IMG/VR virus record: IMGVR_UViG_2545824708_000026
Direction: 5' to 3' (one strand)
DNA: 38,930 bases
Source of the DNA: a virus
Lineage: Duplodnaviria; Heunggongvirae; Uroviricota; Caudoviricetes
Made by a program: the position numbers. This document shows positions 1-3,000 of the stretch, piece by piece. Within the stretch, counting starts at the first letter, position 1. Every line of letters starts with the position of its first letter.

Positions 1-3000
1 ATGGACAACGACAAAATTGATCAACACAGCGACGAAATTGAAGTTGAGAGCGAAGAAAAAGAGCGCGGCAAAAAAATAGAAATAGATGAAGACCGACTCC
101 CCTCCCGGGCGATGGCAATTCATGAGCATATCCGCCAGGATGGTGAAAAAGAGCTGGAACGCGACGCAATGGCGCTACTGTGGTCAGCCATTGCGGCGGG
201 GCTGTCGATGGGCGCTTCGCTACTGGCAAAAGGGATATTTCATGTCGAACTGGAAGGAGTGCCAGGCAGCTTCTTACTGGAGAATCTCGGTTATACCTTT
301 GGTTTTATTATCGTCATTATGGCCCGCCAGCAATTATTTACCGAAAACACCGTGACTGCGGTACTACCCGTCATGCAAAAACCGACAATGAGCAACGTCG
401 GCTTACTTATGCGATTATGGGGCGTCGTGCTGCTGGGTAATATTCTCGGGACAGGTATTGCTGCATGGGCATTTGAATATATGCCTATCTTCAATGAAGA
501 AACTCGCGATGCATTTGTCAAAATCGGCATGGATGTGATGAAGAACACCCCCAGCGAGATGTTTGCCAACGCGATCATTTCCGGCTGGCTGATCGCCACT
601 ATGGTTTGGATGTTTCCTGCTGCGGGTGCGGCAAAGATTGTGGTGATTATATTGATGACCTGGCTTATTGCACTGGGTGACACCACCCACATCGTTGTCG
701 GTTCTGTTGAAATCCTCTATCTGGTGTTTAACGGCACGCTGCACTGGAGCGATTTCATCTGGCCCTTCGCACTACCTACTTTAGCGGGGAACATCTGCGG
801 CGGCACCTTTATCTTCGCGTTAATGAGTCATGCACAGATTCGTAACGACATGAGCAACAAGCGTAAAGCAGAAGCACGCCAAAAAGCAGAACGTGCGGAA
901 AACATTAAGAAAAATGATAAAAACCCAGCATAAATGGCGAGGGTTTAAGCAATCGAGCGGCAGCGTACTTACCCCGCAGTCCATTAGCGGGTATACTCAT
1001 GCCGCATTGTCCTCTTAGTTAAATGGATATAACGAGCCCCTCCTAAGGGCTAATTGCAGGTTCGATTCCTGCAGGGGACACCATTTATCAGTTCGCTCCC
1101 ATCCGTACCAGTCCGCAAAATCCCCTGAATATCAAGCCTTCCGTAGATTCACAGTTCGTCATGGTTCGCGTCAGATCGTTGACAGCCGCACCCCATGACG
1201 GGTAAAAAGTGGATAAAATAATTTTACCCTCCGGATTTTTACCCATGCTCACCGTTAAGCAGATTGAAGCAGCAAAGCCGAAAGAAAAACCATACCGCCT
1301 TCTCGATGGTAATGGCCTGTACCTTTATGTCCCTGTATCCGGGAAAAAGGTATGGCAGCTTCGCTACAAGATTGACGGTAAGGAGAAAATCCTGACCGTC
1401 GGAAAATATCCACTTATGACTTTGCAGGAGGCAAGGGATAAAGCATGGACTGCGAGGAAAGACATCTCGGTTGGCATCGATCCGGTAAAGGCGAAAAAGG
1501 CTTCGTCTAACAACAATTCCTTTAGCGCCATTTACAAGGAATGGTACGAGCACAAGAAGCAAGTCTGGTCAGTAGGCTATGCAAATGAACTTGCAAAAAT
1601 GTTTGATGACGACATTTTACCTATCATCGGCGGTCTTGAGATTCAGGATATTGAGCCGATGCAACTGCTGGAAGTAATCCGCAGATTTGAAGATCGCGGT
1701 GCAATGGAGCGAGCCAACAAAGCACGCAGAAGATGCGGCGAGGTTTTCCGTTACGCTATTGTCACCGGCAGGGCTAAATATAATCCGGCACCTGACCTTG
1801 CTGACGCCATGAAGGGATACCGCAAGAAGAACTTCCCGTTTCTTCCTGCCGACCAGATCCCGGCATTCAACAAAGCACTTGCAACATTTTCAGGAAGTAT
1901 CGTATCGCTCATTGCGACAAAAGTTTTACGCTACACAGCCCTAAGAACGAAAGAGCTTCGCTCCATGCTATGGAAGAACGTCGATTTTGAAAACAGGATT
2001 ATCACCATCGACGCCAGTGTGATGAAGGGTCGAAAAATTCATGTGGTTCCTATGTCAGACCAGGTGATTGAACTTCTCACTACGCTAAGCTCAATCACTA
2101 AACCAGTGTCAGAGTTTGTTTTTGCCGGGCGCAACGATAAGAAGAAGCCAATTTGCGAGAACGCTGTACTGCTTGTGATCAAACAAATCGGCTATGAAGG
2201 TCTGGAAAGCGGTCACGGATTCAGGCATGAATTCAGCACGATTATGAACGAGCACGAATGGCCTGCTGATGCTATTGAAGTGCAACTTGCACATGCCAAC
2301 GGCGGATCTGTGCGCGGGATTTACAACCATGCTCAGTATCTCGATAAGCGCAGAGAAATGATGCAATGGTGGGCGGACTGGCTTGATGAAAAGGGGGGGG
2401 GATCCGCCTTAACCACTATCGAGTGACATAAAGCCTTGCAATCCAGTGCAAAGCTTTGTGTGTATCAGTTTTGTCTGCCATCACATGGAGATAATTAATC
2501 TATAACGCACATAGATGGTTGATGTTAATAAAAGCGCTGATCATCTCCTTAAGAGTATTTTAAGAGCATTTGAGTTATTAGCATGGAGGCGTATTGCCTC
2601 CATGTTTTTACTACCATGTCGCATCTATGTAGAACGTTGGAGATGTAGTGGTGGACCCTTCAATCGATATTTGTCCTGTTGAAGCATTAATGGTGGCCAT
2701 TGCCATGCCAAATGAAACGCCATCAGCAGTGAACGGTACAGGGACATTTTTGGTTACTTTTGGTCTGCACCACCTCGGAAGCGTTAGAACAGTATTGCCA
2801 TTCGCAAATGAAGTGGCTGCCAGTTTAATATTAATTGAATTGGCAGTTAAACTTGACGGTGCCTGTACTGTTACGTTTGTTCCAGCCCACCATTGAACAG
2901 CTGCTCTTGGCGTGTAATCAACACGCGACCACCAGTCGATAATGGCAGAGCAGATAATTTCCGCATACAGACGATACCCTAACTGGCTTTGGTGAATGTC

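What the first reader, a model, noticed from the sequence alone, without database searches (positions are those of the whole stretch)
2393..2401. Nine-G homopolymer at the integrase 3' end and nine-C homopolymer inside the terminase large subunit
A G9 run (2393-2401, encoding the GGG of ...DEKGGGSALTTIE) and a C9 run on the plus strand (19203-19211, encoding GGGG in KYGGGGKGKRFF) are both in-frame. Two 9-mers of this kind in 39 kb of roughly 50 percent GC DNA are unexpected by chance. Such tracts are slippage-prone and could switch integrase or terminase on and off, or they may be sequencing-error hotspots.
Basis: seen in the sequence. Interest (0 to 1): 0.35.

Follow-up and report, generated by a model that had tools for sequence, protein, structure and literature searches.

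The report
Homopolymer tracts are assembly errors
The two nine-base G/C runs are really in this deposited E. coli prophage sequence, but they are almost certainly base-calling or consensus errors of one 2013 draft assembly and not switchable tracts, so the finding is ordinary.

Summary
G9 (2393-2401) and C9 (19203-19211) exist, are in frame, and are the only G/C runs longer than 6 in the window. That is more than chance gives (iid P about 0.012; about 0.02 runs of 9 or more expected per 39 kb from 1.79 Mb of related phage DNA).

They are not slippage tracts. Both are same-length replacements of ordinary sequence: GGTGGAGTG (Val-Glu-stop) to G9 in the integrase, and CCACTCCCC (Gly-Glu-Trp) to C9 in the large terminase. 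None of 92 integrase loci or 139 terminase loci from relatives has a homopolymer or a length change.

The window is contig APZJ01000053.1 of E. coli 179100 (GCA_000356905.1). An independent read-based assembly of the same prophage lineage (Logan SRR488357) matches 16.9 kb with 12 mismatches. All 12 are window-private and ancestral in Logan, including the whole terminase patch.

All nine tract-associated changes copy the preceding base on the G-rich strand, mostly T>G after GG downstream of GGC. That is the published Illumina sequence-specific error signature. They replace an invariant Trp, remove the integrase stop, and occur alongside a tailspike nonsense codon.

Verdict: artefact, confidence 0.9, low interest.

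The parts
2393..2401 (+). G9 run. It differs from the sister and most relatives (GGTGGAGTG) at 2395 T>G, 2398 A>G and 2400 T>G. The length is unchanged. It destroys the native TGA stop at 2400-2402.
   Evidence: Sister loci L035, L042, L353 and L363 differ from the window within int (and its 68-nt downstream flank for L035 and L042) only at these three positions. 2398 and 2400 are private (0 of 62 relatives).
1245..2426 (+). IntS-type tyrosine integrase ORF as deposited (393 aa). The native form is 385 aa ending ...DEKVE*, so the last 8 codons are read-through caused by the G9.
   Evidence: The 393-aa form is on 1 contig; the repaired 385-aa form is on 22 contigs.
19203..19211 (-). C9 run (G9 on the coding strand). 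The sister and Logan have CCACTCCCC; the changes are 19205 A>C (W98G) and 19207 T>C (E97G).
19174..19209 (-). 36-nt patch holding all five TerL-private substitutions: 19174 (V108G), 19186 (Y104F), 19197 (silent), 19205 and 19207. It starts 2-6 nt downstream of a GGC on the coding strand.
   Evidence: These are 0 of 111 relatives, and they are the only differences from the sister and from Logan anywhere in the 1.5-kb gene.
18000..19496 (-). Large terminase subunit (P22 gp2 type, Terminase_6N/6C), 498 aa.
   Evidence: The deposited form is on 1 contig; the repaired form is on 323 contigs.
4779..4779 (-). Window-private T>A that makes tailspike codon 25 a stop (K25*). The deposited annotation therefore calls a 695-aa truncated product instead of 746 aa.
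5778..16903 (.). Six further window-private singletons absent from Logan SRR488357: 5778 T>G, 10163 C>A, 11278 C>A, 14949 T>G, 15400 T>G and 16903 C>A. All are transversions and all are nonsynonymous.
1009..1083 (+). tRNA-Arg(CCT) argW, the attachment site of this P22-like prophage. yfdC (1-933) is host DNA.

Best explanation
Both homopolymers are consensus or base-calling errors fixed in the GenBank draft assembly of E. coli 179100 (GCA_000356905.1, contig APZJ01000053.1). They are not features of the phage genome. The true sequences are most likely GGTGGAGTG (integrase ...Val-Glu-stop) and, on the + strand, CCACTCCCC (terminase ...Gly-Gly-Glu-Trp). In each place, every non-G base inside a G-rich island on the coding strand was called as G, which is a copy of the base before it. 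This left the length unchanged and produced a run of nine. The pattern matches the published Illumina sequence-specific error: lagging dephasing triggered by GGC, GGT read as GGG, consecutive miscalls over about 40 nt in one read direction.

Shown: the same-length replacement; the absence of the tracts from all relatives; the absence of the terminase tract from an independent read-based assembly of the same prophage lineage; and the copy-previous-base signature.

Inferred: that the platform was Illumina, that SRR488357 is the read set of this very strain or of a clonal sibling, and how the errors survived into the consensus.
For: (1) Same-length replacement. Relatives carry AAGGTAGAGTGATCC or AAGGTGGAGTGATCC and CCACTC[ACT]CC at the same coordinates.
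(2) Of 92 independent int loci and 139 TerL loci, none has a homopolymer and none differs in length. The exact tract contexts are absent from IMG/VR, the GTDB representatives and JGI metagenomes apart from four unrelated chance hits.
(3) The sister prophage IMGVR_UViG_2693429605_000012 differs from the window in int only at 2395/2398/2400 and in TerL only at the five patch positions.
(4) Logan SRR488357 contig 17 was assembled independently from raw reads. It matches window 3543-20450 (16,908 nt, no gaps) with 12 mismatches. All 12 are window-private and ancestral in Logan, and none is Logan-private. It also shares the window's three other rare alleles (13913, 14673, 16337), so it is the same lineage.
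(5) The G9-bearing Int (P0016) is on one NCBI contig only and has no Logan source, although the 42-kb Logan contig runs on past the tailspike.
(6) All 9 tract-associated substitutions copy the 5' neighbour on the G-rich strand. The other private substitutions do so in 5 of 19 cases on the + strand and 2 of 19 on the - strand (Fisher p = 6e-4 and 8e-6).
(7) All nine T>G events follow a G, against 20% of T's in the window. Five of six GGT events have a GGC within 15 nt upstream, against 23% of 784 GGT sites (p = 0.003).
(8) The literature describes GGC-triggered, directional miscalls that match the preceding base over about 40 nt, with T>G favoured (PMC3141275). The top error motifs are NGGCGGGT and GGCGGGGT, with 12-28% error in one read direction (PMC3622629).
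(9) The changes look unselected. TerL W98 is invariant in 108 of 108 homologues down to 47% identity. All natural TerL differences from the closest relative are at codon position 3, whereas the patch hits positions 3, 2, 1, 3, 2, 2. Among the 12 private changes outside the tracts, 11 are transversions, the coding ones split 8 nonsynonymous to 2 synonymous, and one more, called intergenic, is a tailspike nonsense codon.
(10) Reverting only the private changes gives exact proteins seen on many contigs, against 1 contig for each deposited form: 323 (TerL), 22 (Int), 13 (scaffold), 11 (needle) and at least 1000 (DUF2824). For coat the deposited protein, whose V295E is shared with Logan, is on 2 contigs and the V295 form on 290.
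Against: No raw reads could be inspected, so neither the platform nor the strand bias is verified. The int region of the Logan contig could not be fetched, so the absence of the G9 there is indirect. It is not proven that SRR488357 is strain 179100 rather than a clonal sibling. The published error rates at these motifs (12-28% in one direction) would not normally win a consensus at good coverage, so low coverage or a permissive assembler has to be assumed. The 9.8-kb host flank on the same contig shows only 3 differences from its nearest genomes, two of them transitions, so the error load there looks lower than in the prophage. The numbers are too small to be sure of that.
Confidence: 0.9

Rival explanations
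1. These are real, recent mutations in the 179100 lineage. A burst of neighbour-templated (dislocation or transient-misalignment) or oxidised-guanine-type mutagenesis in a prophage no longer under selection converted G-rich islands into true G9/C9 runs. It also inactivated TerL and the tailspike.
For: The changes are in the public record and not an artefact of this window. The spectrum is dominated by A:T>C:G and G:C>T:A, which also fits mutT- or mutY-like damage. Three other rare transversions (13913, 14673, 16337) are shared with Logan and are therefore real. Polymerase dislocation can copy a neighbouring base (my own knowledge, not tested here).
Against: The branch asymmetry is 12:0 against a sibling that is otherwise identical over 16.9 kb, which is incompatible with clock-like divergence. 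Five changes fall within 36 nt and none elsewhere in TerL. The two loci have opposite strand orientation, each following its local GGC and G-rich strand and not a common replication direction. The host flank shows no transversion excess. No other assembly among thousands of cluster members shares any of the changes.
Confidence: 0.07
2. These are genuine contingency loci. The tracts are evolved, slippage-prone switches that turn the terminase (and modulate the integrase) on and off.
For: A run of 9 G/C is within the length range that slips in phase-variable genes of other bacteria (PMC4235727). A +/-1 slip in TerL would truncate it to 118 or 104 aa. Phages with hypermutable polyG tracts are reported for Campylobacter; the paper is cited in PMC10877375 and I did not read it.
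Against: No homologue has the tract or any length polymorphism. The tract replaces an invariant Trp, so even the in-frame 'ON' state is probably non-functional. The integrase tract lies beyond the native C-terminus and cannot switch the enzyme off. The tracts are absent from the sister prophage and, for TerL, from the read-based assembly. E. coli has mismatch repair, and natural G/C runs of 8-9 in related phages are all intergenic.
Confidence: 0.02
3. A micro-patch was acquired by recombination from an unsampled divergent terminase or integrase allele that naturally carries Gly codons here.
For: P22-like phages are highly mosaic. Many int matches end near the tract because the downstream DNA is variable.
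Against: Four of the six patch changes are nonsynonymous at residues conserved in all relatives, whereas natural allelic differences are at third positions. No such donor exists among 6087 homologues or 139 loci. The flanks are identical to the sister right up to the changed bases.
Confidence: 0.01

Closest known systems
Illumina sequence-specific / context-specific errors (Nakamura et al. 2011, PMC3141275; Allhoff et al. 2013, PMC3622629; GGT context attributed to Meacham et al. 2011 as cited there)
   Same: The changes are substitutions only, with no indels. The wrong base equals the preceding base. T>G occurs after GG. A GGC lies a few bases upstream on the affected strand. There is a run of consecutive errors within about 40 nt (the TerL patch spans 36 nt). 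Direction follows the local motif and not the gene or the replication direction. Window position 201 sits in CGGCGGGT, one of the top-ranked published motifs.
   Different: The published phenomenon is a read-level error of 12-28% in one direction. Here the errors are fixed in a deposited consensus, which needs low coverage, strand imbalance or a permissive assembler. The G>T/C>A singletons elsewhere in the prophage do not fit the GGC/GGT motif. The platform of this assembly is not known to me.
Homopolymeric-tract phase variation (contingency loci of Campylobacter, Neisseria and Haemophilus; hypermutable polyG tracts reported in Campylobacter phages)
   Same: It is an in-frame G/C run of 9 inside a coding sequence. 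A +/-1 change would truncate TerL.
   Different: There is no tract conservation and no length polymorphism. The tract replaces an invariant residue. The host has mismatch repair. The integrase tract cannot act as an on/off switch. The TerL tract is absent from the read-based assembly of the same lineage.
P22-like (Lederbergvirus; Sf6 / HK620 / CUS-3 type) prophage integrated at argW tRNA-Arg(CCT)
   Same: The IntS integrase is 95-97% identical at the DNA level to HK620, Sf6 and CUS-3. TerS, TerL, portal, scaffold, coat and tailspike follow the P22 order. The prophage sits next to yfdC and tRNA-Arg.
   Different: The early region is lambda-like (Gam/Bet/Exo, CII, O/P). No complete E. coli genome has the whole mosaic; the best is 95.6% over 81%.

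Membership tests
Phase-variable homopolymeric contingency locus | Mononucleotide tract long enough to slip (about 8 or more G/C) within or just upstream of a reading frame | tested here: met
   G9 and C9 are in frame in the deposited sequence.
Phase-variable homopolymeric contingency locus | Tract-length polymorphism among isolates, reads or closely related genomes | tested here: not met
   In 92 int and 139 TerL loci the site always has the same length and never a homopolymer. The sister and Logan assemblies carry ordinary sequence. Raw reads were not available.
Phase-variable homopolymeric contingency locus | The tract is conserved in the lineage (evolved mutability) | tested here: not met
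   Each tract-bearing protein is on a single contig, while the repaired TerL is on 323 and the repaired Int on 22.
Phase-variable homopolymeric contingency locus | Length change toggles expression of a functional product | tested here: not met
   For int, G8 and G10 only alter the tail after the native end. For TerL, frameshifts truncate the protein, but the in-frame state already lacks the invariant W98.
Illumina sequence-specific error (SSE/CSE) | Substitution errors without indels, the miscalled base matching the preceding base in the read direction | tested here: met
   The alignments to the sister (apart from one polymorphic 3-nt indel in gp7) and to Logan are ungapped. All 9 tract-associated changes copy the previous base, against 5 of 19 and 2 of 19 in controls.
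Illumina sequence-specific error (SSE/CSE) | GGC motif shortly upstream, GGT>GGG preference, consecutive errors within about 40 nt | tested here: met
   Five of six GGT events have a GGC within 15 nt upstream, against 23% background (p = 0.003). All 9 T>G events follow a G. The TerL patch spans 36 nt. Motifs are from PMC3141275 and PMC3622629.
Illumina sequence-specific error (SSE/CSE) | Errors confined to one read direction with low quality; platform is Illumina | not testable with these tools
   There is no access to reads or to assembly metadata, and no paper mentions the assembly, the strain or the run.
Illumina sequence-specific error (SSE/CSE) | Not reproduced by an independent assembly of the reads | tested here: met
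   Logan SRR488357_17 has the ancestral base at all 12 window-private positions in 16.9 kb, including the TerL patch. For int the evidence is indirect only. Whether the run belongs to the same strain is inferred from three shared rare alleles.
P22-like prophage at argW | IntS integrase next to tRNA-Arg(CCT), plus a P22-type packaging and head gene order | tested here: met

The most novel reading that the evidence does not exclude
Strain 179100 really carries these changes. A localised burst of neighbour-templated mutagenesis in a resident P22-like prophage created two slippage-prone G9/C9 tracts de novo. That would be a snapshot of how contingency tracts are born from G-rich islands, and it would leave the large terminase both crippled (W98G) and frameshift-prone.
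Probability: 0.04. Interest if true: 0.45.

Novelty: not a real feature. Interest (0 to 1): 0.06.

Why it matters
The biological importance is small. If the tracts had been real, a phase-variable terminase or integrase in an E. coli prophage would have been unusual, but the evidence shows they are errors.

The practical value is a warning. The deposited contig carries at least 12 unsupported substitutions in 16.9 kb of this prophage, including a false stop-loss in the integrase, a false nonsense codon in the tailspike and a false loss of an invariant Trp in the terminase. These have propagated into singleton RefSeq/UniRef proteins such as WP_001504509.1 and WP_001504497.1.

The case also gives a simple recipe for recognising such artefacts from sequence alone: a same-length replacement, a copy-previous-base signature next to GGC, nonsynonymous hits in otherwise third-position-only divergence, and a common allele recovered once the private changes are reverted.

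Tried and rejected
- A slippage origin was rejected because there is no length change at either site.
- A genome-wide mutator or a generally noisy assembly was considered. The 9.8-kb host flank has only 3 differences from its nearest genomes, so this was neither confirmed nor needed.
- Quasi-palindrome templating was rejected because there is no meaningful inverted repeat near either tract.
- Exact-protein uniqueness is not discriminating by itself, because the portal and tailspike proteins are also singletons. It became informative only with the repaired-protein look-ups.
- No complete E. coli genome carries a close whole-prophage relative.
- Exact-context scans of genome, viral and metagenome collections gave only unrelated chance hits.
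- Attempts to fetch the int region of Logan SRR488357_17 failed.
- Literature searches for the assembly, strain, run or protein accessions found nothing.
- The repaired portal protein was not in the collection, possibly because of a different start-codon call (733 vs 734 aa).
- No structure prediction or Rfam search was run, as neither bears on the question.

Full report
**What is there.** The window is a P22-like (Lederbergvirus; Sf6 / HK620 / CUS-3 type) prophage integrated at tRNA-Arg(CCT) next to yfdC. GGGGGGGGG lies at 2393-2401 and CCCCCCCCC at 19203-19211. They are the only G/C runs longer than 6 in 38,930 bases. The first lies at the 3' end of the IntS integrase ORF (1245-2426, +). The second lies in codons 95-98 of the large terminase (18000-19496, -). 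Both are in frame. Under an iid model 0.16 such runs are expected (P of two or more = 0.012). In 1.79 Mb of related phage DNA I found one G/C run of 9 and two of 8, all intergenic, so about 0.02 runs of 9 or more would be expected per 39 kb.

**The tracts replace ordinary sequence base for base.** In Sf6, HK620, CUS-3 and vB_EcoP-611R6 the integrase ends AAG GT[AGT] [AG]G[AG/GT] T[GA][AG], i.e. ...EKVE* or ...EKVR*, 385 aa. The window has AAGGGGGGGGGATCC at the same coordinates. The non-G bases are now G and the TGA stop is gone, so the ORF reads through for 8 codons. In JEP4, E212, Dewey, P22 and SPN9CC the terminase has CCACTC[ACT]CC on the + strand (Gly-Gly-Glu-Trp), where the window has C9 (Gly-Gly-Gly-Gly). 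Variable-gap scans of IMG/VR, together with all other loci fetched, gave 92 independent integrase loci and 139 terminase loci. Every one has the same length at the site and none has a homopolymer. Slippage, which changes length, therefore did not make these tracts, and there is no sign of length variation anywhere in the family. Exact-context scans of IMG/VR, the GTDB representative genomes and JGI metagenomes returned only four chance hits in unrelated DNA.

**Source and closest relatives.** Exact-protein look-ups place the window on contig APZJ01000053.1 of GCA_000356905.1, Escherichia coli 179100. Window position 1 equals contig position 38932. A sister prophage, IMG/VR contig IMGVR_UViG_2693429605_000012, aligns to window 1-26618 with 38 substitutions and one 3-nt in-frame indel. 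It is also seen in Logan SRR11281091. Within the integrase the only differences are 2395, 2398 and 2400. Within the whole terminase gene the only differences are 19174, 19186, 19197, 19205 and 19207.

Polarising every difference against all other relatives shows 19 window-private substitutions and one sister-private substitution. The seven tract-associated private changes sit in two tiny clusters. Of the other twelve, eleven are transversions and only two are synonymous. The damaging ones include tailspike K25* (which explains the 695-aa call where relatives have 746 aa), scaffold T254P and K103N, portal M367I and A556E, coat V295E and DUF2824 D145Y. By contrast, all 14 natural differences between the window's terminase and its closest relative outside the patch are at third codon positions. 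Trp98, which the C9 replaces, is invariant in 108 of 108 homologues down to 47% identity.

**An independent read-based assembly.** The window's coat protein (V295E) occurs on one other contig: Logan SRR488357 contig 17 (42,011 nt), assembled independently from a public read set. Its first 16,908 nt align to window 3543-20450 without gaps and with 12 mismatches.
- All 12 mismatches are window-private positions: 4779, 5778, 10163, 11278, 14949, 15400, 16903 and the five in the terminase patch.
- At all 12 Logan has the ancestral base, and Logan has no private base of its own.
- Logan shares with the window the three other rare alleles (13913, 14673, 16337) and every polymorphism that separates the window from the sister. 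It is therefore the same prophage lineage, either the same strain or a clonal sibling.

A 12:0 branch asymmetry at 7 x 10^-4 per site between otherwise identical sequences cannot be ordinary divergence.

I could not fetch the integrase region of that contig. The 393-aa G9 integrase is recorded on the NCBI contig only and has no Logan source, although the Logan contig continues 25 kb beyond the tailspike. This implies that the Logan contig does not encode the G9 form.

Reverting only the window-private changes gives exact proteins seen on 323 (TerL), 22 (Int), 13 (scaffold), 11 (needle) and at least 1000 (DUF2824) contigs, against one contig for each deposited form. For coat the deposited protein, whose V295E is shared with Logan, is on 2 contigs and the V295 form on 290.

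**Mechanism.** All nine tract-associated substitutions copy the 5' neighbour on the G-rich (coding) strand. These are the three in int read on the + strand and the six in TerL read on the - strand, counting 19209, which some relatives share. Among the window's other private substitutions the figure is 5 of 19 on the + strand and 2 of 19 on the - strand (Fisher p = 6e-4 and 8e-6). All nine T>G events follow a G, whereas 20% of T's in the window do. Five of the six events at GGT have a GGC within 15 nt upstream, against 23% of 784 GGT sites (p = 0.003). The terminase errors start 2-6 nt after ...ATATGGC and run for 36 nt.

This matches the Illumina sequence-specific error described by Nakamura et al. 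That error is triggered by GGC within about 10 nt upstream. It affects one read direction only. [quoted passage not shown] Allhoff et al. report top motifs NGGCGGGT and GGCGGGGT, with 12-28% error in one direction on GAIIx, HiSeq and MiSeq (PMC3622629). In a G-rich island such as GGTGGAGTG or GGGGAGTGG, copying the previous base at each non-G position yields exactly a G9 of unchanged length.

Two steps are inference: that this assembly was made from Illumina reads, and that low coverage or strand imbalance let the errors win the consensus. The G>T/C>A singletons elsewhere do not fit the GGC/GGT motif. They may be another error mode of the G/T and A/C channel-crosstalk class that Nakamura et al. 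mention.

**Rivals.**
- Real, recent mutation in strain 179100 (dislocation-type or oxidised-guanine mutagenesis in a decaying prophage) remains possible only because I could not see reads. It is disfavoured by the 12:0 asymmetry. Five changes cluster in 36 nt with none elsewhere in the gene. The two loci have opposite strand orientation, each following its local GGC. The 9.8-kb host flank has three differences from its nearest genomes, two of them transitions.
- A true contingency locus is contradicted by the lack of conservation and of length polymorphism, by the loss of an invariant residue in the 'ON' state, and by the position of the integrase tract. G8 and G10 only give 388- and 395-aa proteins with altered tails, and natural IntS C-termini already vary and can be extended.
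- A recombination micro-patch is contradicted by the nonsynonymous bias and by the absence of any donor.

**Verdict.** The sequencing-error alternative is supported, but in a modified form: the tracts are the error and not a hotspot for length errors. This is not a real biological feature (confidence about 0.9) and interest is low. The decisive test is a read pile-up or Sanger check at contig positions 41324-41332 and 58105-58142.

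Noticed in passing
window 4779 (tailspike, 2611-4851 minus strand): A window-private T>A turns tailspike codon 25 (AAA, Lys) into TAA. The deposited annotation therefore starts the tailspike at a downstream GTG (695 aa), whereas relatives and Logan SRR488357 encode 746 aa. It is probably another assembly error.
   Followed up: yes
window 5778, 10163, 11278, 14949, 15400, 16903: Six more window-private transversions, all nonsynonymous: orf106 V32G, DUF2824 D145Y, needle A56S, scaffold T254P and K103N, portal M367I. All six are ancestral in the read-based Logan assembly. Three of them are GGT>GGG.
   Followed up: yes
window 13913, 14673, 16337: Three rare transversions (coat V295E, a silent coat change, portal A556E) are shared by the window and Logan SRR488357 but by no other relative. 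They look like real lineage markers. A Val-to-Glu change in a P22-type coat protein is a radical substitution whose effect is unknown.
   Followed up: partly
window 201 (yfdC codon 67, GGT>GGG, silent): T>G in the context CGGCGGGT, one of the strongest published Illumina error motifs. It differs from 27 of 28 relatives and from the nearest complete E. coli genomes, but one IMG/VR locus (L075) also has G, so it could be an error or a polymorphism.
   Followed up: partly
window 36094-36099: The only other G/C run of 6 differs from its single 96%-identical relative (L217) by A>G (ACGAGGGG to ACGGGGGG). That is the same kind of change as the tract-forming ones, but it is unresolved because no close relative covers this region.
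   Followed up: partly
RefSeq/UniRef records derived from window genes: WP_001504509.1 (TerL), WP_001504497.1 (IntS), WP_001504507.1 (scaffold), WP_001504504.1 (needle) and WP_001504503.1 (DUF2824) are singleton proteins that exist only because of the window-private changes.
   Followed up: yes
window 20711-21190 (minus strand): A 159-aa ORF with a Pfam Tad2-like (PF11195) hit sits between the lysis cassette and the small terminase. It is a possible anti-defence gene.
   Followed up: no
window 22626-22781 (minus strand): The prophage carries tRNA-Thr(TGT) and tRNA-Asn(GTT) genes upstream of the lysis genes. The same pair is annotated in a related prophage of strain CUVET17-972.
   Followed up: no
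window 21000-38930: The early and regulatory half is lambda-like (Gam/Bet/Exo, CIII, N, CI-like repressor, CII, O/P replication, NinB to NinH, RusA, Q) joined to P22-type morphogenesis genes. No complete E. coli genome holds the whole mosaic; the best matches are 95.6% over 81% of the left part and 98.8-98.9% over 73% of the right part.
   Followed up: partly
window 10059-10061 and 9962-10088 (gp7): A 3-nt in-frame indel and a cluster of polymorphisms separate the window and Logan (231-aa gp7) from the sister lineage (230 aa). The window alleles are common among other relatives, so this looks like a small recombination patch.
   Followed up: partly
L028:9599, L017:13343, L091:223 (related IMG/VR phage contigs): The natural G/C runs of 8-9 in related phages are all intergenic. 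The one in L028 (G8) lies immediately upstream of the ATG of an invertase-like gene, where a length change could alter translation initiation.
   Followed up: no
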